A DNA stretch of 64,000 nucleotides from a virus. A program made the position numbers and the translations under genes. Position 1 is the first letter of the stretch. Each line of letters opens with the position of its first letter. The notes under the pieces were generated by a model. It made no database searches. It had not been told where the DNA came from and saw nothing but the letters and a program-made list of their open reading frames with translations. The stretch lies in the IMG/VR virus record IMGVR_UViG_3300026522_000001, positions 54,806-118,805 of that record; one strand, written 5' to 3'. Positions 1,648 through 64,000 of the stretch are shown here, one piece after another.

Positions 1648-3204
1648 TCAACAGTATTTGAAAATTTCTTCGACAACGTCATAGCGGGACTTATTCAGCT
1701 GTCTGCAAAAGGCTTTATATGGGTCAAGTTCATTACAACAAACCATATCTACAAGCTCTTTACTAAATCCACTCAAAAGAATTACACCATTTCTTGAGCT
1801 TTGAATTGGGACTGTACCATCATTATAACAAGAGACATTCCAAAAAATGAGTTTAGGAAGTTCATACCCACAATCCTTATACTTCTTCTCAATATTCTCA
1901 AATAATGTGTCATTTTCTTGTATATTTTGATTGCGTAATGGGAATCCAAATGCATCTGTATCACACATAGCAGTATTAAACTGCATATCAGAAATGATAA
2001 GAACATTCTTTGGCATATCTGCCTGTGTCGCATTACACTTCTTTGCTGTTTTTAGGATGAGGTCAAATACAGATTCAACATTAGTTGTACTACATTCTGT
2101 ATTTTTCATTAGCTTTTCTATATTGTCCCTTAATGTATTGCAGTTTACTGTAATCATCTTTGGGTTATTAGAAAATGCCATGATTTTATCTTTGAATACA
2201 CCTGTATTATTTTTTGCACAATACAGAGCAATTGAATCCCCAATTTCCATCGCTGAAACATTTTTTGATACATATGATAACATAGAGCCACTTCCATCTC
2301 TAACAACAAGCGTATCAGCAAATGTTTTTGGTTTCTTTTGAGATTCCCAAAGACTCTCTAGGGTATTGTCAACAGGTTTCATTCCAATGCCAAAAAAATT
2401 AGCATCTTTCTCATATGCATGAACTATGTCATACAAAAACATAGAATTAGCATTTATCTTATTTTCGCCACGAGCTACATCAATAAGATATTCATTTCTT
2501 CTAGCAAAATCGTGCTTAAGAAAAGAATCCTTATACTTGATATTTGCTAAAGATGGTACATGAGAGTAATCTACTTTATCCCATTTATTTGAACTTAACT
2601 TTACCTCTAAAACATCTAGCCCTTTTCTTAGTTTAGAAAGTGTTTTTCTATACTGTGAAGGAGACATTCTAAAATATTTTCTAAGTTCATTACCAACTGC
2701 TACTGTTTTCTTTGAAGATGTATTGATACTCGGCATCCATTTTGCTAAAAGACTGTATGGCTTTCCATTGGAATAATTATATAAGTCATCATAAAGCTGT
2801 TCTTGCAAAATCCCTGCAATATATATTTTTAAGTCATCATATTTTGTATTTGCAAAAAGATAAATATAGTCGTCCCATCTGCCAAATTCAGGCAAGTCAA
2901 CCGTGTAAATAAATCTATAGAAAATAGACATATCGATTTCTGTAAGATGAAGTAGCAACTTTCTAAAAGTATCTCTTTCACCCATTCCTTCTCTGACATC
3001 TCTCAAAAAGAGAAGGAATCTTAATGTCATAGCTTTATCTTGATAATATGCTTCATCAAAAAGAGAATAATCTATTGGATTTTCCCTAAATGATGAAACT
3101 TTATAGAAAAAATCTAAAAGTTTACTGCCTGTTGTAGCATAAGCTACTGCACCATTTTCTGTTGTTGTTTTTACATTGTTTTCAAGATTTTCAATAAAAT
3201 TCAT
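1648..3204 (-). CDS. DUF2828-like protein with C-terminal vWA/MIDAS domain (Ro60-like architecture)
   Basis: N-terminus TENGAVAYATTGSKLLDFFYK..LRFLLFLRDVREGMGERDTFRKL matches the DUF2828 signature as I recall it. VVRDGSGSM is a DxSxS MIDAS motif. Confidence 0.6.
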   Translation of the reverse strand: MNFIENLENNVKTTTENGAVAYATTGSKLLDFFYKVSSFRENPIDYSLFDEAYYQDKAMTLRFLLFLRDVREGMGERDTFRKLLLHLTEIDMSIFYRFIYTVDLPEFGRWDDYIYLFANTKYDDLKIYIAGILQEQLYDDLYNYSNGKPYSLLAKWMPSINTSSKKTVAVGNELRKYFRMSPSQYRKTLSKLRKGLDVLEVKLSSNKWDKVDYSHVPSLANIKYKDSFLKHDFARRNEYLIDVARGENKINANSMFLYDIVHAYEKDANFFGIGMKPVDNTLESLWESQKKPKTFADTLVVRDGSGSMLSYVSKNVSAMEIGDSIALYCAKNNTGVFKDKIMAFSNNPKMITVNCNTLRDNIEKLMKNTECSTTNVESVFDLILKTAKKCNATQADMPKNVLIISDMQFNTAMCDTDAFGFPLRNQNIQENDTLFENIEKKYKDCGYELPKLIFWNVSCYNDGTVPIQSSRNGVILLSGFSKELVDMVCCNELDPYKAFCRQLNKSRYDVVEEIFKYC

Positions 3205-3468
3205 CTTTTTTCTTCCTTCCTAGATACAAAATAATTATCCCATATTATTATTTATTATTGATTGCTGTATGTATCTAAATAAATTAAAATTATATTATAA
3301 ATACTTTAGGTTATGAATACCAAAACAAATCAATACAATTCCTGAAATTAGAATAAGACTAACTAGCATTATATATCTCCAAAAAGCAATTTGCTTTAAC
3401 ATCTATTGGTTTCATCATTTTGACTACTTATGCTATCCACCACGTAAAGGTTGATGTTACTGGATAAC

Positions 3469-3549
3469 TGCCCCTGACAGGATTCGAACCTGCACGTCTT
3501 TCGACAACGGATTTTGAATCCGCACTGTCTTCCATTCCAGCACAAGGGC
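3469..3549 (-). tRNA. tRNA-Leu (anticodon CAA), class II
   Basis: Acceptor gcccttg/caggggc, anticodon arm gcgga-ttcaaaa-tccgt, long variable arm tgtcgaaagacgt, T arm gcagg-ttcgaat-cctgt. CCA is not encoded. Confidence 0.85.
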
Positions 3550-3640
3550 AATAATTGGTTTTTTCGTTTTTTCCTTAACGACCTAGCTTTTCAGATGCGT
3601 TTTAGTGCTGGCCAGTCACTTCAAGCATAGTCCTATCCGC

Positions 3641-3760
3641 TTGACACTCCCCATGCCTAAAGGCAGGGGATTCTTGGTTCAACGACCAGTGCACCGCTTC
3701 CAAGGAATTGGTGTCTTACATGATTTCCCCAAGCGTGAATTCCCGTGTGTCCCACGGTAT
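3641..3760 (-). ncRNA. orphan TnpB omega-RNA-like scaffold, copy A
   Basis: 120 nt, about 85% identical to 59985-60104 with compensatory changes. It shares the blocks tgtaagac / gtgca.t / gttga.accaa.a / ggagt.tgtcaa with the 3' UTR of tnpB-2. It begins at the predicted TSS of a consensus promoter and ends in hairpin + TCAA. Confidence 0.6.
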
Positions 3761-3766
3761 GTTTAT

Positions 3767-3795
3767 ATTATAACACACCCTAAAACACATGTCAA
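3767..3795 (-). promoter_or_regulatory. consensus promoter for ncRNA copy A and tRNA-Leu
   Basis: Minus strand reads TTGACA tgtgttttagggtgtgt TATAAT. The predicted TSS falls on ...ATACCGTGGG, the first conserved bases of the repeat. Confidence 0.65.
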
Positions 3796-4120
3796 CACCT
3801 TTTCTGAAAAATTTTGACGAAAATTGAAAAATATATTCTGACCTCGTAGAAGCCGTTCTGAGAGTATTTTTCCCTCTATGAGTATAAATATACCTAAAAA
3901 TGCTTGGGAGCCCCTTAGTGGGCATCCTTCGAAACGACACAGGGTTTTATATTTATATTCTTTTCTCCAACCTGCACAAAAATAAAAATATTGGCCAAAA
4001 AATGAATTTTATATATATAGTGAAATTTTTCACAAGCTATACACTATTTTTTTAGGAGAGGGAGACAGCTAAAGGTAGTTCCCCTCATGGTATACATTTT
4101 ACACATTTGTCCATTTCGTC

Positions 4121-4305
4121 TTATATTATATATTATTATATTATATATACGAACGTAGTGAGTATATTTAATATATAATATATAATATAATATATATAAA
4201 AAATAATATAATAAATATATATATATAAATAATAAAATATTATATATGCTATATATATTATATTATATATACTCACTACGTTCGTATATATAATATAATA
4301 TATAT
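4121..4305. repeat. large inverted repeat flanking a pure A/T spacer
   Basis: Perfect 25-bp arms atatatacgaacgtagtgagtatat (4143-4167) and atatactcactacgttcgtatatat (4267-4291), extended by imperfect TA-rich pairing. The ~100-bp spacer contains only A/T. Confidence 0.8.
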
Positions 4306-4635
4306 AGGGCAAAATAAGCACCTGTCTTTTAGAGAAAGACAAATTATAAAGACTACTTTTTAGCTAAAAATTAGACTAAAGTCCTATTTACTATTTAGAC
4401 AAAATACTTTATAATATATAAAATAATAAAAATAAATAAAAAATAATAATATTTTATCTAAACAGAGCATATAATATTTAGATAAAAATAAATATAAAAT
4501 AATCTTAAATAATAAATTTAATATTAATTTTTATAAATAAAATATAATAATAAATTCTAAATAATTATTATATGTTTAGATTAACATAAATATAAGAATT
4601 TAATAAAAGTTTAATAAAATAAATTAAAATTTCTA

Positions 4636-4664
4636 TTGACAGCTATATATACGTATGATATAAT
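4636..4664 (+). promoter_or_regulatory. consensus promoter of the plus-strand gene block
   Basis: TTGACA gctatatatacgtatga TATAAT (17-nt spacer), about 65 nt before the 4731 ATG. Confidence 0.65.
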
Positions 4665-4730
4665 ATATGTATAGAGAAAAAGGAAATAAGGATTTTAGAG
4701 ATAATAATAAAAAGAAGTGAAAGGAAAAAT

Positions 4731-6229: not shown

Positions 6230-6514
6230 ATGAGTGAATTAAGCATATCAGATAAGTTTTTAGATTTTCTAAAAAATAAAATTAATGAACATGTAGATAT
6301 TGTAAATAATTATTCTTATAACGAAGAAAAACTAAACAAGGCTTTAGAAAAATTACAAGTAGAAACAACTATTTATGCTAATCTTGTAACAATTTATACA
6401 AATTCAAAAACAAAAGAAATTACAGATGAAATTATTAATAGTATGAAAAATGTTGACGCTGATACTATCAATAATGCAATAAGTCAGTTTAGTAATTTTA
6501 CAGATAAGAATTAA
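6230..6514 (+). CDS. hypothetical protein
   Basis: ORF track. Co-directional, tightly packed, RBS GGGGAAAA upstream. Confidence 0.55.
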   Translation: MSELSISDKFLDFLKNKINEHVDIVNNYSYNEEKLNKALEKLQVETTIYANLVTIYTNSKTKEITDEIINSMKNVDADTINNAISQFSNFTDKN

Positions 6515-6528
6515 GACGGGGTAATTAT

Positions 6529-6981
6529 ATGAAGCCAATTAGAGAATTTAAGTCAGACGAAGAATTTCAAAAGATTGCTAAAGACCTACAGCATAAACTC
6601 TTTTTAGATGATTGGTTTATCATTTTTGGGCTTACAGATGAGCCAATTAAGATTTCTGAAGGATATGCTAGTGGATTAACACATTATGATTATGATAATA
6701 GAGAAGCTACAATTCTTGTTCTAAATAAAGATAATTGGGATTATTCACCAGAAGTAGCAGAGCATAAACCTGCTGTAACTAGGAATTGTGCCTTATTGAA
6801 TCTTCTACATGAATTATTGCATCTAAAGAGAGAGTATATAGTTCCTTCTGATATTCTTGGAAATGAAGCAGATGAATTATCTGAAATGGAAAGAGAAGAA
6901 GTTCATGTAAATCTTGAAAAGATGGCAAAAACACTTTTCATGGCACTAACAGGAACTAATACAGATTATTTTCTAAAATAA
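6529..6981 (+). CDS. hypothetical protein with HExxH motif (possible metallopeptidase)
   Basis: LLHELLHLKRE contains HExxH. RBS GACGGGG upstream. Confidence 0.5.
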   Translation: MKPIREFKSDEEFQKIAKDLQHKLFLDDWFIIFGLTDEPIKISEGYASGLTHYDYDNREATILVLNKDNWDYSPEVAEHKPAVTRNCALLNLLHELLHLKREYIVPSDILGNEADELSEMEREEVHVNLEKMAKTLFMALTGTNTDYFLK

Positions 6982-7006
6982 AAAGAATAAAGGAGTTTTC
7001 TATTAT

Positions 7007-7690
7007 ATGAGAAAACAAGACAATGATTATATAGACTTAAAGAATATGAAAGAAAGAGATAGAATATTCCTAAAGTTCAATAAAGAACAAAAAGAAATGT
7101 TTAAGTCTATACAAGATAATATATTCACATTTGTAGAAGCAAAGTCAGGAACAGGAAAGACATTAGTCTCTATTTCTGCTATGATTGACCTTTTGGCAAA
7201 CGACGAAATTAATAAGATTGTGTATTTCCAAAAAGTAAGTGACAGATACCTAGAGCATGGATTTTTAGCGGGAAGTTTAGAAGAAAAAACAAATATGCTT
7301 TGGACTCCATTTTATGATGCAATGAATACTTTAGGATTTTTTGAAAGCACTATTCAACATCTTATTGATAAAGAAATTATTGTATTGACAACAGATAGTG
7401 TTCTTAGAGGAGTTAATTTAGAGAAGTGTGGTGTTATTGCAGATGAGTGTGAAAACTGTGACACAGAAACACTAAGGCTTATTTTTACAAGATGTCATGA
7501 TGATTGTCATATAGTAATGCTTGGTGATTCAATGCAAAAAGACAATGCACATAAAGATAATAAAGAGTTTGTTTACTATGGTGAATATCTTTCTAATCAA
7601 GAATTTGGTGATAGATGCAAACTAACTAAGAATTATAGAGGTAAATTCAGTAAGTGTGCAGAAGATTTTATTTATAATTTTAAAGAATGA
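7007..7690 (+). CDS. phoH: PhoH-like ATPase
   Basis: Walker A AKSGTGKTLV, GFLAGSLEEK (PhoH GFLPG-like), Walker B-like VIADECEN, and MLGDSMQKD (GDxxQ.D). Confidence 0.7.
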   Translation: MRKQDNDYIDLKNMKERDRIFLKFNKEQKEMFKSIQDNIFTFVEAKSGTGKTLVSISAMIDLLANDEINKIVYFQKVSDRYLEHGFLAGSLEEKTNMLWTPFYDAMNTLGFFESTIQHLIDKEIIVLTTDSVLRGVNLEKCGVIADECENCDTETLRLIFTRCHDDCHIVMLGDSMQKDNAHKDNKEFVYYGEYLSNQEFGDRCKLTKNYRGKFSKCAEDFIYNFKE

Positions 7691-7704
7691 GATAAATATA
7701 ATAT

Positions 7705-7875
7705 ATGACATATACTAAATTAAAAAAAAATACTATTGATTCAGTCCTTGCAAATAATGCAATAACTGATAAATCTAGCAAAATTAGTCAATATATTAAG
7801 TTAATGGAAGATTTTAGTAATAAATATGAAATTTACTTTTTAACTGTTATGGATAGTGATGGTGATACACATTGA
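7705..7875 (+). CDS. hypothetical small protein
   Basis: 56-aa ORF filling the gap between neighbours, with a 4-nt overlap onto the next start. Confidence 0.35.
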   Translation: MTYTKLKKNTIDSVLANNAITDKSSKISQYIKLMEDFSNKYEIYFLTVMDSDGDTH

Positions 7876-8423
7876 GTACTGATAGTAGAGCTTTTTTTGA
7901 GCGAGAACTAAAGATTTTGGAGGATGAATCAGAAAAAGATGATAAGGCTATTTTTGATAAAACAGGCAAATATCCTTCTCCTTCTGCTTTGTCCGTCCAA
8001 AAGAAAGTTACAAATGCTATCTTAGAATTACATGATGTATTTGCTAAACAACATCATGATAATTTTAGTGCTAGTTATGTAATGGATTTATTTTATAAAC
8101 TTGTTCATTTTACACCTCTTTCGCCGCTTACTGGTAAAGATGAAGAATGGGAACCTGTAGATGGTATGGATAATACAGAATATAATACTAGATTTACTGG
8201 TATTAGTCGTACTAATAAAGATAATAGTACTGCTATTTGGAATGATGGTATTCTATTTTGTGAACCAAATAATAATAATTGGTTTGGGGCTAAAGAATCA
8301 AGAGTAAACGTATCATTTCCTTTTTCTGATTTTGCGCGAAAGCTATATGTGTTGAAATATAAATGTGAAGATAAACCTATTGCAGACCAGCTTAAAGATG
8401 GAGATTATGAGGTTGTGAATTAA
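7872..8423 (+). CDS. hypothetical protein
   Basis: ORF track (TTG start), co-directional packing. Confidence 0.55.
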   Translation: MSTDSRAFFERELKILEDESEKDDKAIFDKTGKYPSPSALSVQKKVTNAILELHDVFAKQHHDNFSASYVMDLFYKLVHFTPLSPLTGKDEEWEPVDGMDNTEYNTRFTGISRTNKDNSTAIWNDGILFCEPNNNNWFGAKESRVNVSFPFSDFARKLYVLKYKCEDKPIADQLKDGDYEVVN

Positions 8424-59984: not shown

Positions 59985-60104
59985 TTGACACTCCCCACGG
60001 CTGAAGCCGGGGGATTCTTGGTTCGACAACCACTGCACCGCCTCCGAAGAATTGGCGTCTTACACGATTTCCCCAAGCGTGAATTCCTGTGTGTCCCACG
60101 GTAC
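59985..60104 (-). ncRNA. orphan TnpB omega-RNA-like scaffold, copy B
   Basis: Homolog of 3641-3760. Compensatory stems are cggc/gccg vs tgcc/ggca, and ttc[ttcg]gag vs ttc[cttg]gaa. It ends ggggagtgTCAA. Confidence 0.6.
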
Positions 60105-60111
60105 TAGAGAT

Positions 60112-60140
60112 ATTTATGCTACTTTGGGTTTCTCTTCCAA
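60112..60140 (-). promoter_or_regulatory. possible promoter for ncRNA copy B
   Basis: TTGGAA, a 17-nt spacer, then ATAAAT. This places the TSS on GTACCGTGGG, the same position as in copy A. Confidence 0.35.
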
Positions 60141-60148
60141 AGCGTGCT

Positions 60149-60592
60149 TCATAAAATTTCAACATTCATGTATCTTTTACCAAATCTCATACATTCTTGT
60201 TTGCTGTTCATATAGATGTCAATTGTGTTTGGTACACCGCATCTATCTTTTACTGTGTACACAACACCATTGATTCTTACCTTTGTTCCTAGTGGTAAAT
60301 CGTAACTAGCTACTGCACCAACATGAGCTTTTTCACCGTTTGCCATCGTATCACCAGGTGTATATGCGTCACCTACTGTGTATGCTGTTACATGGCATGA
60401 GATTACTTGTTTTCTATTTTGCTCCTTGTTGTTAGTTTCTTGTGTCTTCTTTTCCTCCAATTCTTTTTCCATCAGTTCTTTTTCAAGTGAATTAGTTTTA
60501 TAGATTTGTTCTTCTAATTCTCTTGAAGTTTCTTTTAGTTCATCATATAACTCATCATTTAATTCATTCGAGTAGTTATAATGATTTTTCAT
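60149..60592 (-). CDS. 3D-domain (MltA/RlpA-like) protein with coiled-coil N-terminus
   Basis: VTAYTVGDAYTPGDTMANGEKAHVGAVASYDLPLGTKVRINGVVYTVKDRCG..IDIYM follows the 3D-domain pattern. There is no obvious RBS before the ATG. Confidence 0.6.
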   Translation of the reverse strand: MKNHYNYSNELNDELYDELKETSRELEEQIYKTNSLEKELMEKELEEKKTQETNNKEQNRKQVISCHVTAYTVGDAYTPGDTMANGEKAHVGAVASYDLPLGTKVRINGVVYTVKDRCGVPNTIDIYMNSKQECMRFGKRYMNVEIL

Positions 60593-60616
60593 TTCTGTGA
60601 GCTGTTGATTTGATTC

Positions 60617-60760
60617 CTGAACCTCCCCATAGCTAAAGCTAGGGGATTCGTAAGAAGTTTAGTTTTTTATAACTCTTATTCTTACTGGTGTATTCAGTTC
60701 ACCTCTACTGTATAGTCCACTTAAGGACACAACATTACTTTTTCTTAATATGTTTAATGC
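60617..60760 (-). ncRNA. predicted omega-RNA / right-end region of tnpB-1 (bounds approximate)
   Basis: The 3' end of tnpB-1 plus 42 nt reads ..cagtaagaa-[stem]-cgaaTCCCC-tagc-ttta-gcta-t-GGGGAggTTCAG, the same architecture as copies A and B. Confidence 0.45.
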
Positions 60761-61900
60761 ACCATTTACATCTGCATTAAGTAGTATACCACTAGAAGTT
60801 TTATACAAGCCGCGCTTTATACGCTTTCCGCTAAAAATATGTTGTTTAGAATCACCATATACAGGAATCTCATCTTTATCCCAAAAACTTGCTTTTGATG
60901 TATAGCTTTCTTCTTGTTCTATCATATCAATGCCATATATTTTACATTGATATTCTAGCTTTTGTTGCAACTTATAAAAAGGCATTTGAACAAATATCTG
61001 ATTGTTTACCTTCCCTAAATTACTTTTCTGCTGAAATCCTTTATTATTACCAATAACAAGATTTCCTATATTATGCTCTAAACAGTAATTTATTATCTTT
61101 TTAGCTGTCTTACCTAGATAATCCCTTACACGATTTTCTCGTTTTCTAAGTAGTCTTGCTTGTCTTTTTGTTAGTGTCTTACTTAACTTCTGTTTGTCTT
61201 TAATGCTTTGCAATCTAGCATTTTCTTTATTATACCATTGGTTATAGCTTTTCAGCTTTTTCCCATCAAGTATAAAAGAGTCACCATCTGATGTTACACA
61301 AGTACAAAGATTGTTTACTCCTAAATCAATGGCTAGTGCTTTTGTTTTATCTAAATTTATTTTTGAAACATCTTTTACTTCATAAGTATAAACAATTTCA
61401 AAAAACCTAGCATTATATTTTGGGATTATTTTTATTTCTTTGACTTTCTTATCAGATAATATCGAAGGCATTTGAATATAAAATTTTTTATGTGTTTTTG
61501 CATATTCCCTTGAATATGGCATTTGAAACTTACCATTACGAATATTAATCTGTTGAATTATTAGCTGATTATATCCCTCTTTTGGTAAGTAATGCGGAAT
61601 ATTGACTTTATGAGCTACCTTCTTACTTTTTAAGCTACCAAAGAATGACTTAAACTCTGCATCAACCTTTCTCATAATCTGTTGTGCCATACTTGCTTGC
61701 AAAAGTTTATAATTATCACTTGTCTTTAGTGTCTTGTAGACCTCATTGTAATTTAGATAACTCTTATCACTGAAAAATTTCTGTCGTATCTCGTATAAAA
61801 CTTGATTTTTAAGATTTTTTGAAATACGACACTGTTCTTTAAGGACATTATATTCTTCCTTTGACAAATGGTTAAGCTGTTGTTTTACTACTAAGTACAT
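60659..61900 (-). CDS. tnpB: TnpB-family RNA-guided nuclease, variant without zinc-finger cysteines (tnpB-1)
   Basis: RuvC-I ALAIDLGVNNL, RuvC-II MIEQEESYTSKASFWD, RuvC-III LLNADVNGALNILRK. N-terminal OrfB helical region. Confidence 0.85.
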   Translation of the reverse strand: MYLVVKQQLNHLSKEEYNVLKEQCRISKNLKNQVLYEIRQKFFSDKSYLNYNEVYKTLKTSDNYKLLQASMAQQIMRKVDAEFKSFFGSLKSKKVAHKVNIPHYLPKEGYNQLIIQQINIRNGKFQMPYSREYAKTHKKFYIQMPSILSDKKVKEIKIIPKYNARFFEIVYTYEVKDVSKINLDKTKALAIDLGVNNLCTCVTSDGDSFILDGKKLKSYNQWYNKENARLQSIKDKQKLSKTLTKRQARLLRKRENRVRDYLGKTAKKIINYCLEHNIGNLVIGNNKGFQQKSNLGKVNNQIFVQMPFYKLQQKLEYQCKIYGIDMIEQEESYTSKASFWDKDEIPVYGDSKQHIFSGKRIKRGLYKTSSGILLNADVNGALNILRKSNVVSLSGLYSRGELNTPVRIRVIKN

Positions 61901-61926
61901 TTACAATTTCACCTCCTCTAGTAATT

Positions 61927-61956
61927 ATTATAATACTAAGTTAGTGAAATTGTCAA
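61927..61956 (-). promoter_or_regulatory. promoter upstream of tnpB-1
   Basis: TTGACA, an 18-nt spacer, then TATAAT, followed by the RBS AGGAGGTG. Confidence 0.5.
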
Positions 61957-61995
61957 GAAAAAATTATGTTGTTAGTAAGGTTGAATACATGAACC

Positions 61996-62260
61996 CTCTA
62001 ACTTTAACCTTCTTTAGGAGGTCTAGTTCATTACAAGTCGCTACACTCGTAACAGTTCTCTTATGAACTTCCTATCATTTCTGATAGGCACAGACTATAT
62101 CTTATCCATATCATATCTCTATGACTTAGGCGAAACCACTTCCATAGCCAATAGCTTGCTATGTACTTCCCTCAAGAGGAATAGTCGTTGAAGTTTCCCC
62201 TATTCGGGGCTTACCTGCTGATTACCAATTTTTGAAATAGGAATTAGGATTTAACCTTGT
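61996..62260 (-). ncRNA. group I intron 3' core-like sequence (IA2 type), bounds approximate
   Basis: agatatagtctgtgcc + covarying hairpin + gaagttcataagagaactgt, identical 20-mer to nrdD intron 2. caacgactattcctcttgagggaagta lies at 62164-62190. Confidence 0.6.
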
Positions 62261-62439
62261 CCCATCTACTAGATTTTTTCTGTTTTCACCGCATATCACG
62301 TTTAGGCTTGTTTCATCCTTACGTTGTAGCTCTAGTAGCTTTATGGTATTCCAGCAATTCAGTTTCTTTGTTGCATGGCTACACAAAACCATGTCTACAC
62401 ACCAATTTATTGATATGCTTACCTACTTATTCCCTTATA

Positions 62440-62470
62440 TCCCCATAGCTAAAACTAGGTGTTTTACGGG
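62440..62470 (-). repeat. decayed copy of the tnpB-1-type terminal hairpin
   Basis: cctagttttagctatgggga differs by 1 nt from cctagctttagctatgggga at 60625-60645. The 5' arm is eroded (acacc for tcccc). Confidence 0.5.
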
Positions 62471-62648
62471 AATTAGTGATAACACATTCCTCCTAATACT
62501 AGATTACTTAATAGCAATCCAAAAATTATTGTTTTTTCTACCTTGTTTTTCTTGCTTGCTCTCTTTGTCATTCTCAACGCCCTTTCTGCTTGACCTACAT
62601 TTATATTACCACATAAAACAAAAAATGGCAAGGGAATTTTGCTCTCTT

Positions 62649-62762
62649 TTGACATACTCCAGGTTGAACCCGCTGAATTTTGGTATCAACAAAGACTGCA
62701 CATCTCGCGATGGTCTTACATCTTCTTCTCCAATGGATGATGCCCCACCCATATTTATAGAT
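62649..62762 (-). ncRNA. predicted omega RNA of tnpB-2
   Basis: Starts at the tnpB-2 stop. It contains tgtaagac-catc[gcga]gatg-tgcagt..gttgataccaaaa..ggagtatgTCAA, collinear with orphan copies A and B. Confidence 0.55.
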
Positions 62763-63878
62763 TTATGCTGATAAAATTCTTAAACCTTCGTCTAAGATAT
62801 TCTGTGCAGCATTTCTATCCCTATCACAATGATGTCCACAAGAAGGACAAGTCCACTCACGAATAGATAAATCTTTTATTTTTGGATTTTGATAACCACA
62901 TTTATTACACAACTGACTTGATGGATAAAATCTGTCTATTTTAACAATCTTTGTGTTAAATTGTGGTGCTACATATTCAAGTATTCTCAAGAATTCACCA
63001 AATCCATAATCTCCAACTTTCTTGCCATGTCCTTTCTGCATCCATTTCATATTCAAATCTTCAAAACAAATAATAGAATATTTTTTGCAAAGTTCTCTTG
63101 CCAATTTCCAATGATAAGCATTACGCTGATTGGTTACCTTTCGATGTAACCTTGCTAAAGCAAGTTGTGCTTTATGCCTGTTATTTGAACGTAATCTTTT
63201 TGTAAAGAGATTTCGATTAGCTTTTGCAATAGCTTTTTGCTGTTTCTTGAAAAAACTTGGTGCAATTATGTCATCTTCTTTGTTTGGTGCTACAAGCATT
63301 TTACCCTTGAAGCCAAAATCAAATCCGATGCTTTTACCCAGTCTAGGTTTAATATTAACTTCTGGCGTTTCACAAACAAGATAAACATAGAAGTCTCCAC
63401 AAGAATCTTTCTTGACAGTAAGCATTTTAATCTTACCCTCTACTTCTCTTGACTTGAAAAACTTATATTTGTTCTTAGCAATCTTAATAGTATTATCTTT
63501 AATAGCGTTTTTACCTACTTCATCATAAGAAAATGAACAATACTTTCTATAAGGCTTAAATTTTGGCGGGGATGTTTTCTTTTTTCGTTTTAGATTTCCC
63601 CAAAATAATTTATAGCCATTATCTATTCTACACACGACATCATGAATAGCATGAGATTGTAAATCTTTCCAATAAGCATACTTATCTAGTTTTTTGAGCT
63701 TAGTAATATGCTTTTGCAGTCTAAATTTATTCAAAGATTTATGATAAAGTTTCCAATATCGCTTATGGAGAGCAATGCAATGATTATATATCTTGCAAGC
63801 TACCCAAAGCTGATATTGTAACTTCTTATTCTTCTTGGAATTATATAGCTTAAATTTATATGTTTTCACATTGCTCAC
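62763..63878 (-). CDS. tnpB: TnpB (IS200/IS605 OrfB) RNA-guided nuclease, classical type (tnpB-2)
   Basis: RuvC-I SIGFDFGFK, RuvC-II ICFEDLNMKWM, zinc finger CNKCG..CPSCG, RuvC-III DRDRNAAQNI. Confidence 0.9.
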   Translation of the reverse strand: MSNVKTYKFKLYNSKKNKKLQYQLWVACKIYNHCIALHKRYWKLYHKSLNKFRLQKHITKLKKLDKYAYWKDLQSHAIHDVVCRIDNGYKLFWGNLKRKKKTSPPKFKPYRKYCSFSYDEVGKNAIKDNTIKIAKNKYKFFKSREVEGKIKMLTVKKDSCGDFYVYLVCETPEVNIKPRLGKSIGFDFGFKGKMLVAPNKEDDIIAPSFFKKQQKAIAKANRNLFTKRLRSNNRHKAQLALARLHRKVTNQRNAYHWKLARELCKKYSIICFEDLNMKWMQKGHGKKVGDYGFGEFLRILEYVAPQFNTKIVKIDRFYPSSQLCNKCGYQNPKIKDLSIREWTCPSCGHHCDRDRNAAQNILDEGLRILSA

Positions 63879-63955
63879 CTCTTGTTTGATATTATATCTA
63901 TTTATAAACTACATCTATCCCTGTGTCTAAAAGCAGCGGCTTGCGGTACAGAAAT
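63879..63955 (-). ncRNA. group I intron 5'-end-like sequence upstream of tnpB-2
   Basis: cataaatttctgtaccg..ttagacacaggg parallels the first 45 nt of nrdD intron 1 (ctaaattctgccg..tgtcacaacaggg). It begins at the stop of a frame entering from the window edge. Confidence 0.4.
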
Positions 63956-64000
63956 TTATGACATTAACATTTTAGTTAATGATGCAATAGATATATTATT

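What the first reader, a model, noticed from the sequence alone, without database searches (positions are those of the whole stretch)
60617..63958. tnpB sits inside group I intron sequence: an IStron-like mosaic with the ribozyme split around the nuclease gene
Seen in sequence:
1. Two divergent tnpB genes lie head-to-tail on the minus strand. tnpB-2 (62763-63878) is classical: RuvC D/E/D plus CxxC..CxxC. tnpB-1 (60659-61900) has intact RuvC D/E/D (DLGVNN, EESYTSK, NADVNGALNI) but no zinc-finger cysteines.
2. The ~150 nt upstream of tnpB-1 (61996-62130) carry the same ribozyme 3' core as the ORF-less nrdD intron 2. They share the identical 20-mer gaagttcataagagaactgt and agatatagtctgt. The hairpin between these blocks co-varies (cctatcagaaatgatagg vs ctatatagtgatatatag).
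3. 62164-62190 (caacgactattcctcttgagggaagta) is the counterpart of aacgactatcccggcagggagtagg in the polA intron.
4. The 75 nt upstream of tnpB-2 resemble the 5' end of nrdD intron 1. They start at the stop codon of a frame entering from the window edge.

Together, a ~335-nt IA2-type ribozyme appears to be split by a ~1.6-kb insert consisting of tnpB-2, its omega RNA and a decayed hairpin. TnpB therefore occupies the position where neighbouring introns in this genome carry HNH homing endonucleases.

Established knowledge: IStrons (CdISt1, C. botulinum) fuse a 5' group I intron to a 3' IS605-type tnpB.

Inference: the geometry here differs from that, with ribozyme halves flanking one tnpB and a second tnpB immediately 3'. 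It suggests RNA-guided intron homing or intron-buffered IS insertion in a phage.
Basis: partly seen in the sequence, partly recalled or inferred. Interest (0 to 1): 0.88.

Follow-up and report, generated by a model that had tools for sequence, protein, structure and literature searches.

The report
Canonical phage IStron beside separate IS
This stretch of an uncultured phage holds two independent TnpB mobile elements: a plain tnpB insertion sequence between two genes and, 170 bp further on, a standard 'IStron' (a complete self-splicing intron plus tnpB) inside a gene. It is not one ribozyme split around a nuclease gene.

Summary
Most of the sequence observations hold: two divergent tnpB genes, no zinc-finger cysteines in tnpB-1, and ribozyme motifs shared with the nrdD and polA introns. 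The proposed geometry does not hold.

The group I ribozyme is complete and contiguous at about 62422-62025 (minus strand), between the two tnpB genes. Rfam Intron_gpI matches it over the full model (64.3 bits). A profile built from other phages matches it at E 9e-64, and the fold covaries strongly. Nothing ribozyme-like lies upstream of tnpB-2.

Two related phage contigs (L013, L055) lack both inserts and fix the boundaries:
- **Element 1** (about 63950-62649) is a tnpB-only IS200/IS605-type IS in the helicase-downstream intergenic region.
- **170 bp of phage DNA** (62648-62479) follows and includes exon 1 of a 186-aa gene.
- **Element 2** (62478-60617, 1862 bp) is a canonical group A (CdISt1-type) IStron. 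It sits after GTTAT, ends in TCAG, and carries its tnpB after P9.2. Removing it restores the 186-aa ORF exactly.

The modestly new points are the zinc-finger-less TnpB clade, which is rarely linked to an intron, the phage host gene, and the natural empty target alleles. Verdict: a new member of a known kind. No RNA data exist, so splicing and cleavage are inferred.

The parts
63956..64000 (-). 3' end and stop codon (63958-63956) of a 565-aa SNF2-family helicase gene. This is the 'frame entering from the window edge'.
   Evidence: The ENA contig L003 extends past the window edge. Its gene at 6248-7945 carries ResIII/SNF2/Helicase_C. L013 1045-1087 aligns to 64000-63958.
62649..63950 (-). Element 1: a tnpB-only IS200/IS605-type insertion sequence (about 1302 bp) in the intergenic region. 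The left boundary is uncertain by about 10 nt.
   Evidence: It is absent from L013 and L055, where AAATTT(C/A)GGC|AAGAGAGC is continuous. Homologous elements L018-L021 lose similarity right after ..GGAGTATGTCAA.
63879..63950 (-). Left end of element 1, with an imperfect subterminal hairpin and the tnpB-2 RBS. It is not ribozyme.
   Evidence: It aligns to the left ends of L018 and L020 (CCGCAAGCC..TTTTAG..GGG). There is no Intron_gpI or profile hit.
62763..63878 (-). tnpB-2, 371 aa, a classical TnpB with CxxC..CxxC.
   Evidence: Pfam OrfB_IS605 and TNB. It is 33% identical over its full length to the TnpB of the Clostridioides-phage IStron.
62649..62762 (-). omega-RNA-like 3' region and right end of element 1, ending ..GGAGTATGTCAA.
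   Evidence: It is conserved past the stop codon in 5 elements. Of 30 predicted pairs, 16 show compensatory changes.
62479..62648 (-). Phage DNA between the two elements: the rest of a terminator-like hairpin, a promoter-like site, and exon 1.
   Evidence: 92% identical to L013 1123-1293. Also present in L055.
62479..62571 (-). Exon 1 of the interrupted gene (31 codons, MTKRASKKNKVEKTIIFGLLLSNLVLGGMCY), ending in the target motif GTTAT.
   Evidence: Exon 1 plus exon 2 translate to 186 aa collinear with the uninterrupted 186-aa ORF of L013.
60617..62478 (-). Element 2: a group A (IS200/IS605-type) IStron of 1862 bp.
   Evidence: L013 1293|1294 and L055 are continuous across this site (ATTAT|GAATC and GTTAT|GAATC).
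62441..62461 (-). Left-end subterminal hairpin of the IStron (cacctagttttagctatgggg), lying in the P1 loop.
   Evidence: Near-copy of the right-end hairpin at 60645-60625. Homologous to the left ends of intron-less tnpB-1-type IS (L025, L029) and to L009 and L050.
62418..62422 (-). Inferred internal guide sequence GUAAG, pairing with the exon end (G)UUAU to form P1 with U.G at the splice site.
   Evidence: Seen in sequence. It covaries with the target motif: GUCAG with TTGAT in L009; GUAAG with CTTAT in L012 and TTTAT in L050. The Rfam match starts here.
62025..62422 (-). Complete, contiguous group I (IA2) ribozyme, P2 to P9.2, with the P/Q/R/S elements and P7.1/P7.2.
   Evidence: Rfam Intron_gpI at 62422-62071: 64.3 bits, E 4.5e-16, model 1-253. 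A profile built without the window row hits 62369-62025 at E 8.8e-64. 96% of cells are paired and 40 of 78 pairs are compensatory. P3 covaries.
62017..62029 (-). GAACUA motif after P9.2, then the 5' arm (GACCUCC) of the stem that closes off the IS module.
   Evidence: The 5' arm is complementary to GGAGGUU at 60626-60620. The same pairing occurs in L050, L023 and L009. Both features are described for IStrons in PMC4227781.
61927..61956 (-). Consensus sigma-70-type promoter (TTGACA-18-TATAAT) inside the intron, upstream of tnpB-1.
   Evidence: It is the only 12/12 match in 60100-64000. Function is not tested.
60659..61900 (-). tnpB-1, 413 aa, RuvC D/E/D present, no zinc-finger cysteines.
   Evidence: Pfam OrfB_IS605 1.8e-30 and TNB 1e-10. 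The clade alignment lacks CxxC pairs throughout. Weak alignment to solved Cas12f/TnpB chains.
60617..60744 (-). omega-RNA-like region and right end: hairpin 60645-60625, 3' arm of the closing stem 60626-60620, and terminal TCAG 60620-60617 (3' splice site).
   Evidence: In the alignment of 9 elements, 23 of 34 pairs are compensatory. Right ends are compared.
60149..60616 (-). Exon 2 of the interrupted gene. Its first ~16-20 nt (GAATCAAATCAACAGC..) are the predicted TnpB-1 guide/target.
   Evidence: 96% identical to L013 1294-1350. Matches PHROG families annotated as peptidase and has a weak 3D-domain hit.

Best explanation
Two unrelated TnpB-carrying mobile elements landed next to each other in an uncultured phage of Firmicutes type.

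Element 1 (about 63950-62649) is a non-autonomous, tnpB-only IS200/IS605-type IS. It sits in the intergenic region after the SNF2 helicase gene and needs no intron.

Element 2 (62478-60617) is a canonical group A IStron inserted after GTTAT, between codons 31 and 32 of a 186-aa membrane-anchored gene that may encode a cell-wall enzyme. It works at two levels.
- RNA level (inferred): read-through transcripts fold the complete 5' IA2 ribozyme. The stem GACCUCC/GGAGGUU brings the 3' end (..UCAG) to the core, and the whole 1862 nt is spliced out, restoring the ORF.
- DNA level (inferred from the published TnpB model): TnpB-1 binds an omega RNA made from the 3' end of the element. Its guide is the first nucleotides of exon 2. 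It cuts intron-less alleles (GTTAT/ATTAT + GAATCAAATCAACAGC), so that recombination with an IStron-bearing genome copies the element in. Transposition to new sites would need a Y1 TnpA supplied in trans.

What is shown: the boundaries, the contiguity and covariation of the ribozyme, the restored ORF, and the family features. What is inferred: splicing, omega-RNA production and cleavage.
For: Empty sites:
- L013 and L055 are continuous across both insertion points, and 170 bp of host DNA separates the inserts.
- Joined exons give a 186-aa protein collinear with the L013 ORF.

Ribozyme:
- Rfam Intron_gpI matches the full model at 62422-62071, 64.3 bits.
- The profile built from six other phages hits 62369-62025 at E 8.8e-64, with no other hit except nrdD intron 2.
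- 96.1% of cells are paired, against 79% in shuffles and 32-42% when partners are slid. 40 pairs show compensatory changes.
- The P3 pseudoknot has 6 bp in all 8 sequences, with 6 different helices.

Homologous ribozyme-plus-tnpB elements split genes elsewhere:
- the terminase of a Clostridioides phage (TTGAT|..TCAG|);
- a Listeria-phage contig that has tnpA plus tnpB;
- the portal gene of a Bacillus phage;
- CbISt4 of phage D-1873, annotated as a group I intron.

Group A rules from PMC4227781 are all met: T-rich pentanucleotide target, TCAG end, IS placed after P9.2 and a GAAC motif, closing stem.

TnpB domains are present. Covarying omega-like 3' regions are found for both elements.
Against: - There are no RNA data, so splicing, omega-RNA processing and nuclease activity are untested.
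- P1 as inferred has only 4 base pairs.
- The window copy lacks one omega stem-loop that 7 of 9 relatives have.
- No tnpA is present in the window or in 10 kb beyond it.
- TnpB-1 lacks the zinc finger found in characterised TnpBs.
- The left boundary of element 1 is ambiguous by about 10 nt, and 3 nt (GGC) of the empty site are missing.
- Neither omega region matches an Rfam family.
Confidence: 0.88

Rival explanations
1. One reading: one ~335-nt IA2 ribozyme is split by a ~1.6-kb insert (tnpB-2 plus its omega RNA). Its 5' part lies at 63958-63879 and its 3' core at 62260-61996, and the whole 63958-60617 stretch is one intron.
For: The ribozyme 3' core really is upstream of tnpB-1. The sequence after the helicase stop codon contains a short taaatt(t)ctg..ccg string that is also present near nrdD intron 1.
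Against: - The 5' half of the ribozyme (P2-P6) lies at 62422-62200, directly joined to the 3' core.
- 63957-63879 scores below shuffled controls against nrdD intron 1 and gives no covariance or profile hit.
- 62648-62479 is host DNA with a coding exon, conserved in L013 and L055.
- The helicase ends at its own stop codon in the empty-site relatives too.
Confidence: 0.01
2. The IStron is a dead relic. The ribozyme no longer splices and TnpB-1 no longer cuts. The host gene is inactivated, or is expressed only as the 147-aa product from the internal ATG at 60592.
For: - There is no tnpA.
- One omega stem-loop is deleted.
- P1 is short (seen in sequence).
- The related Peptacetobacter copy (L050) has a frameshifted tnpB.
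- The zinc finger is absent.
Against: - All conserved core elements and helices are intact in the window row.
- The U before the 5' junction, the terminal G and the closing stem are retained.
- tnpB-1 is a full-length ORF with RuvC D/E/D.
- Both exons keep frame and are 92-96% identical to uninterrupted relatives.
- The internal ATG has no Shine-Dalgarno sequence (seen in sequence).
Confidence: 0.1
3. The two tnpB genes and the spacer form one composite unit that moves, or is maintained, together.
For: They are adjacent. Both have similar IS200/IS605-style subterminal hairpins (CCCC..TTTAG..GGGG type), so one TnpA might recognise both. Both available relatives lack both elements.
Against: - The spacer is ordinary phage sequence present in the empty-site genomes.
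- Each element has its own left and right ends and its own family of relatives found singly elsewhere.
- The two TnpBs are nearly unrelated.
Confidence: 0.03

Closest known systems
Group A IStrons (CdISt1 of Clostridioides difficile and relatives; Tourasse et al. 2014, PMC4227781; CdiIStrons in Zedaveinyte et al., bioRxiv 10.1101/2023.11.20.567912)
   Same: - IA2 ribozyme at the 5' end.
- IS200/IS605 module placed after P9.2 and a GAAC motif.
- Insertion after a T-rich pentanucleotide, with no target duplication.
- 3' end TCAG.
- 7-bp closing stem.
- tnpB-only (ORF A lost), as in many copies.
- Size like FnISt1 and MfISt1 (about 1.8 kb).
- The ribozyme is 76% identical to that of a Clostridioides-phage IStron.
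   Different: - The TnpB belongs to a zinc-finger-less, ~415-aa clade only ~22% identical to the classical IStron TnpB.
- Most members of that clade have no intron: only 2 of 31 genome loci carry the ribozyme.
- The omega region is very short after the stop codon (42 nt) and does not match RAGATH-18, unlike L008 and L009.
- The host is a phage gene. The 2014 survey found only group B IStrons in phages.
CbISt3/CbISt4, group B (IS607-type) IStrons of C. botulinum phages c-st and D-1873
   Same: They are phage-borne IStrons with a homologous IA2 ribozyme. L008 is in alignments A1 and A2 and is annotated 'Group I catalytic intron' followed by a transposase.
   Different: Group B elements insert after GG, end in CGG, have a G as the last exon base, a long AU-rich closing stem and a serine TnpA. 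The window element shows the group A signature for every one of these features.
Intron-less IS200/IS605 tnpB elements with omega RNA (ISDra2-type TnpB homing model; Meers et al., PMC10055086)
   Same: Element 1 (tnpB-2) and the intron-less relatives of tnpB-1 all have subterminal hairpins, a 3' omega-like structured region that ends at the right end, and a guide taken from the flank.
   Different: Element 1 has no ribozyme and sits between genes. Element 2 adds the ribozyme between the left-end hairpin and the tnpB promoter, and its last base is G instead of C or A.
Phage group I introns carrying HNH or GIY-YIG homing endonucleases (T4 td/nrdB, Twort, and the nrdD/polA introns of this window)
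   Same: They share the same ribozyme class. There are exact shared blocks with nrdD intron 2. An Enterocloster phage has the homologous ribozyme followed by an I-TevI-like gene.
   Different: Mobility comes from an RNA-guided TnpB plus transposon ends, not from a protein-only homing endonuclease.

Membership tests
Group A IStron (IS200/IS605 + IA2 intron) | Complete group I IA2 ribozyme at the 5' end (P1-P9.2, with P7.1/P7.2) | tested here: met
   Rfam Intron_gpI at 64.3 bits, above the 50-bit gathering score, over the full model. Profile hit at E 8.8e-64. Covariation. P3.
Group A IStron (IS200/IS605 + IA2 intron) | IS module located after P9.2, following a GAACGA/GAACAA-type hexamer | tested here: met
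   GAACUA at 62029-62024 aligns with GAACGA/GAACAA/GAAUAU of the relatives. The hexamer is a variant not listed in PMC4227781.
Group A IStron (IS200/IS605 + IA2 intron) | [quoted passage not shown] | tested here: met
   The window and L055 read GTTAT|; L013 reads ATTAT|. The empty sites are continuous, with no duplication.
Group A IStron (IS200/IS605 + IA2 intron) | 3' terminus TCAG | tested here: met
   ..GGTTCAG| at 60623-60617. The same end occurs in L009, L012, L050 and L023.
Group A IStron (IS200/IS605 + IA2 intron) | Short (6-10 bp), compositionally balanced stem enclosing the ORF region | tested here: met
   GACCUCC (62023-62017) pairs with GGAGGUU (60626-60620), 7 bp. It is conserved in L050, L023 and L009.
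Group A IStron (IS200/IS605 + IA2 intron) | ORF B = TnpB of the IS200/IS605 family | tested here: met
   Pfam PF01385 at 1.8e-30 and PF07282 at 1e-10. PHROG 506 transposase.
Group A IStron (IS200/IS605 + IA2 intron) | ORF A (Y1 TnpA) or a remnant of it | tested here: not met
   tblastn with the Listeria-contig TnpA finds nothing in the window or L003. 'ORF B only' copies are accepted members in PMC4227781 Table 1, so this marks the copy as non-autonomous and does not exclude it from the family.
Group A IStron (IS200/IS605 + IA2 intron) | Self-splicing that restores the host transcript | not testable with these tools
   In silico only: the joined exons reproduce the uninterrupted 186-aa ORF of L013.
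Group B IStron (IS607-type) | Insertion after GG, 3' end CGG, G as last exon base, long AU-rich closing stem | tested here: not met
   The junctions are GTTAT| and TCAG|, and the closing stem is 7 bp with 4 G-C pairs.
TnpB / OMEGA RNA-guided nuclease | RuvC D-E-D catalytic triad | tested here: met
   tnpB-1 has IDLGV, QEESYTS and NADVNGA, conserved across its clade and aligned to solved Cas12f/TnpB chains. tnpB-2 has FDFG, EDLN and DRDRNAA.
TnpB / OMEGA RNA-guided nuclease | CxxC..CxxC zinc finger in the TNB domain | tested here: not met
   It is absent from tnpB-1 and from all of its full-length relatives. It is present in tnpB-2. The TNB Pfam model still matches tnpB-1.
TnpB / OMEGA RNA-guided nuclease | Structured omega RNA at the 3' end of tnpB, ending at the right end, with the guide taken from the flank | tested here: inconclusive
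   Conserved, covarying 3' regions end at the element boundary: 23 of 34 pairs and 16 of 30 pairs. There is no Rfam match and no RNA data.
   plus the empty sites.

The most novel reading that the evidence does not exclude
The window element may represent a separate, recent fusion of a CdISt1-like IA2 ribozyme with a zinc-finger-less TnpB IS lineage that normally has no intron.

Two adaptations would go with this. First, the last base of the right end changed from C/A to G (TTCAC to TTCAG), creating the terminal G that group I splicing needs. Second, a strong internal promoter downstream of the ribozyme would let tnpB and omega transcripts be made without the ribozyme. Only host read-through transcripts would then splice, which would ease the published intron-versus-guide conflict.

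With intact empty alleles circulating in related phages, this would be a natural system for RNA-guided intron homing between phages.
Probability: 0.3. Interest if true: 0.45.

Novelty: new member of a known kind. Interest (0 to 1): 0.3.

Why it matters
The surprising part of the finding, a ribozyme split around a nuclease gene, disappears. What remains is a well-defined, apparently intact IS605-type IStron in a phage gene.

It has three features of modest value:
- Exact natural empty-site alleles exist (TAM plus a target of at least 27 nt, identical in L013 and L055). Splicing, TnpB-guided cleavage and homing during co-infection can therefore be tested with known substrates.
- It places a zinc-finger-less TnpB clade among the intron-associated clades.
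- Comparison with the intron-less relatives of that clade shows what changes when a ribozyme is acquired: its position between the left-end hairpin and the tnpB promoter, and the terminal G.

There is also a practical lesson. Window-wide Rfam scans missed every group I intron here because of the speed filters.

Tried and rejected
- **Rfam scans of the whole window and of 8 kb.** They gave no Intron_gpI hit at gathering score or at E<=10. This was a filter false negative: a 551-nt slice gave 64.3 bits.
- **Megablast of 12 kb of the window against phage records.** No match. The phage is not in that collection, and the helicase is only ~35% identical to those of Firmicutes phages.
- **My first guess for the 5' splice site.** I took the hairpin CAUAUC/GGUGUG as P1. 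I dropped this when the L009 and L012 junctions and the empty sites put the splice site 65 nt further upstream. That hairpin is P2.
- **My first idea that 'ttagctatgggga' at 62455-62441 was the right end of the tnpB-2 element.** Rejected: it is the left-end hairpin of the IStron, and the tnpB-2 element ends at 62649.
- **Rfam omega-type families for both 3' regions.** None found, although RAGATH-18 hits the classical IStrons L008 and L009.
- **Search for tnpA.** None.
- **Pattern scans for more relatives.** The viral collection returned only L013 again. The metagenome scan returned one new empty-site contig, L055.
- **Searching for relatives that carry only one of the two inserts.** None found. 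L018 has the tnpB-2 IS at the same locus but ends 72 nt after it.
- **Exact TAM and left boundary of the tnpB-2 IS.** Not resolved.

Full report
**What is in the sequence**

On the minus strand the order is as follows:
- the end of a gene running in from the window edge, with its stop codon at 63958-63956;
- tnpB-2 (63878-62763, 371 aa);
- an 862-nt gap;
- tnpB-1 (61900-60659, 413 aa);
- a 147-aa ORF (60592-60149).

Both tnpB products match Pfam OrfB_IS605 and Cas12f1-like_TNB. They are almost unrelated to each other: 32% identity over 47 aa. tnpB-2 has CNKC..CPSC. tnpB-1 has the RuvC motifs but no cysteine pairs. The same is true of all its full-length relatives at 48-65% identity, so the loss is a clade trait and not decay.

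**Is there a ribozyme, and where?**

Window-wide and 8-kb Rfam scans found no group I intron at all. That was a filter artefact. On a 551-nt slice, Intron_gpI matches 62422-62071 (minus strand) over the full model 1-253, at 64.3 bits (gathering score 50) and E 4.5e-16.

Independent of Rfam, blastn showed that window ~62362-62026 resembles non-coding DNA in phages of Clostridioides, Listeria, Bacillus, Enterocloster, Alicyclobacillus, Staphylococcus and Vibrio. One of these is the stretch annotated 'Group I catalytic intron' in C. botulinum phage D-1873.

An HMM built from six of those phages, leaving the window out, hits 62369-62025 at E 8.8e-64 over positions 4-327. The only other hit is the 3' part of nrdD intron 2. 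Nothing hits near 63958-63879.

The seven-sequence alignment (A2) supports the fold:
- It gives 78 predicted pairs, of which 40 show compensatory changes.
- 96.1% of cells are paired, against 79.2% in shuffles (0 of 500 reach it) and 32-42% when partners are slid.
- The covariation score is 0.534, against 0.189 in shuffles and at most 0.104 when slid.

The classical P, Q, R and S elements (AAUUGCUGG, AAUCAGCAG, UCAACGACUA, GAUAUAGUC) occur in canonical order. The P3 pseudoknot, which RNAalifold cannot draw, has 6 bp in all eight sequences, with six different helix sequences. P7.1, P7.2, P9, P9.1 and P9.2 are present, which fits class IA2.

The ribozyme is therefore complete and in one piece, between the two tnpB genes.

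The shared 20-mer, the shared 13-mer and the differing hairpins between them (this is P9) are exact. So is the polA-intron counterpart of the R/P7.1 block.

The claimed resemblance of the 75 nt upstream of tnpB-2 to nrdD intron 1 is not above chance: score 12 against a shuffle mean of 15.1. That stretch gives no Intron_gpI match, even in truncated mode.

**Boundaries from empty sites**

An ENA contig (L003) extends the window. It shows that the gene at the edge is a 565-aa SNF2-type helicase.

A related viral contig (L013) has the helicase followed directly by an uninterrupted 186-aa ORF. blastn aligns three blocks:
- L013 1045-1087 to window 64000-63958;
- L013 1123-1293 to window 62648-62479 (92% identity);
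- L013 1294-1350 to window 60616-60560 (96% identity). The last two blocks abut in L013.

A second contig (L055) shows the same two empty sites. At the second site it reads GTTAT|GAATCAAATC, which is identical to the window's flanks.

It follows that there are two separate inserts.
- **Element 1** (~63950-62649, ~1302 bp) replaces GGC in the intergenic sequence AAATTT(C/A)GGC|AAGAGAGC.
- **Element 2** (62478-60617, 1862 bp) lies between codons 31 and 32 of the 186-aa gene.

Exon 1 (62571-62479) plus exon 2 (60616-60149) translate to a protein collinear with the L013 ORF. The 170 bp between the elements is ordinary phage DNA.

**Element 2 is a canonical group A IStron**

Tourasse et al. (PMC4227781) define group A by these features:
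- an IA2 ribozyme;
- the IS module after P9.2 and a GAAC-type hexamer;
- insertion after TTGAT, ATTAT or TTTAT;
- a TCAG 3' end;
- no target duplication;
- a short, balanced stem enclosing the ORF region;
- IS200/IS605 ORFs.

The window element has GAACUA at 62029-62024, GTTAT| at the 5' junction, TCAG| at 60620-60617 and no duplication. It also has a 7-bp stem, GACCUCC (62023-62017) with GGAGGUU (60626-60620), which is conserved in three relatives.

Its left-end and right-end subterminal hairpins (62461-62441 and 60645-60625) are near-copies of each other, in the IS200/IS605 style.

Its closest ribozyme relatives are plain IStrons:
- one in the terminase gene of Clostridioides phage ES-S-0173-01 (..CTTGAT| ribozyme, 369-aa TnpB..GGTTCAG|);
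- one on a Listeria-phage contig that still has tnpA and tnpB.

The inferred guide sequence just 5' of P2 covaries with the target motif. It is GUCAG with TTGAT, and GUAAG with CTTAT, TTTAT and GTTAT. In the window this gives a 4-bp P1 with U.G at the splice site. This is an inference.

**What is less ordinary**

TnpB-1 is only ~22% identical to the classical IStron TnpB. tnpB-2, which has no intron, is 33% identical to it.

Of 31 genome loci that encode TnpB-1 relatives, only two carry the ribozyme: a Peptacetobacter chromosome, in the 5' end of a gene after TTTAT, and a Selenomonadaceae MAG. The intron-less relatives have the same left-end hairpin, a promoter-like site and the same omega-like 3' region.

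The three intron-bearing copies end in ..TTCAG, while six intron-less ones end in ..TTCAC or ..TTCAA. This fits the need for a terminal G, but the sample is small. Zedaveinyte et al. already report that many TnpB clades acquired introns independently, so this adds a member and not a new kind.

A 12/12 sigma-70-type promoter at 61956-61927 lies inside the intron upstream of tnpB-1. Transcripts from it would lack the ribozyme. This is an inference; I did not find the idea in the two IStron papers I searched for it.

**Element 1**

Five homologous elements share a structured 3' region from the stop codon to ..GGAGTATGTCAA and then diverge. Of its 30 predicted pairs, 16 are compensatory. The element sits in the 5' arm of a terminator-like hairpin (GGCAAG..CTTGCC plus a T-run) that is intact in L013 and L055. 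Its left boundary is uncertain by about 10 nt, and its TAM is unresolved.

No tnpA was found, so both elements are non-autonomous.

**Mechanism**

The boundaries, the ribozyme and the restored ORF are shown. The rest is inferred.

Read-through pre-mRNA of the 186-aa gene self-splices through the IA2 ribozyme. The closing stem delivers the 3' splice site to the core. The same 3' nucleotides form the omega-RNA scaffold, so the two folds compete, as published for IStrons.

TnpB-1 with its omega RNA would cut GTTAT/ATTAT + GAATCAAATCAACAGC alleles, such as those of L013 and L055. Repair from an IStron-bearing genome would then copy the element in.

**Verdict**

The observations are mostly correct, but the split-ribozyme mosaic is refuted. 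This is a new member of a known kind and of modest interest.

Noticed in passing
window 1-64000 (e.g. 55837-55760, 43731-43707, 54853-54845): Rfam scans of the whole window, at gathering score and at E<=10, report no group I intron. Yet the IStron ribozyme scores 64.3 bits on a short slice. The nrdD and polA introns are probably missed for the same reason (speed filters, large inserts).
   Followed up: partly
window 58388-53751 (L003 13513-18150): nrdD is split into at least four coding pieces, with two HNH-type ORFs between them. The ORF-less intron between 56030 and 55691 shares exact P7-P9.1 blocks with the IStron ribozyme. One HNH ORF lies upstream of the R element (aacgacta at 56678-56671), and the other starts right after an S element (gatatagtc at 54853-54845).
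   Followed up: partly
window 62649-62620; L013 1117-1150; L055 555-606: The tnpB-2 IS sits in the 5' arm of a terminator-like hairpin (GGCAAG, 13-nt loop, CTTGCC, then a T-run) downstream of the helicase gene. The hairpin is intact in both empty-site relatives. 3 nt (GGC) are missing in the window.
   Followed up: partly
window 60617; L023 1719; L050 3841 versus L024, L028, L029, L032, L033, L005 right ends: The last base of the right end is G in the three ribozyme-bearing tnpB-1-type elements. It is C or A in six intron-less relatives (TTCAG versus TTCAC/TTCAA).
   Followed up: partly
window 60650-60660 (alignment A3, columns 180-195): The window's omega-like region lacks a covarying stem-loop that 7 of 9 related elements have, between AAACUUCUUA and the right-end hairpin.
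   Followed up: no
window 61956-61927 (minus strand): There is a perfect TTGACA-18-TATAAT promoter match inside the intron, upstream of tnpB-1. Intron-less relatives have promoter-like sequences at the same relative position.
   Followed up: partly
L008 5298-5367; L009 4709-4763: Rfam RAGATH-18 matches the 3' (omega) region of the classical IStrons CbISt4 (61.7 bits) and the Clostridioides-phage IStron (30.3 bits). It does not match either tnpB 3' region of the window.
   Followed up: partly
L001 2993-4100 (Staphylococcus phage qdsa001): The ribozyme profile gives four separate hits within 1.1 kb after a CDS annotated 'truncated capsid protein'. These look like several closely spaced group I introns or intron fragments.
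   Followed up: no
L009 2881-4793 (Clostridioides phage ES-S-0173-01); L002 ~2980-4700 (Bacillus phage vB_BceH_LY2): Public phage records contain IStrons that are not annotated as such. They split the large terminase gene and the portal gene. In the Bacillus phage the tnpB is annotated as two 'transposase' CDSs.
   Followed up: partly
L003 935-2017 (about 9 kb beyond the window edge): The same phage contig has a gene with an RVT_1 reverse-transcriptase domain upstream of the helicase region.
   Followed up: no
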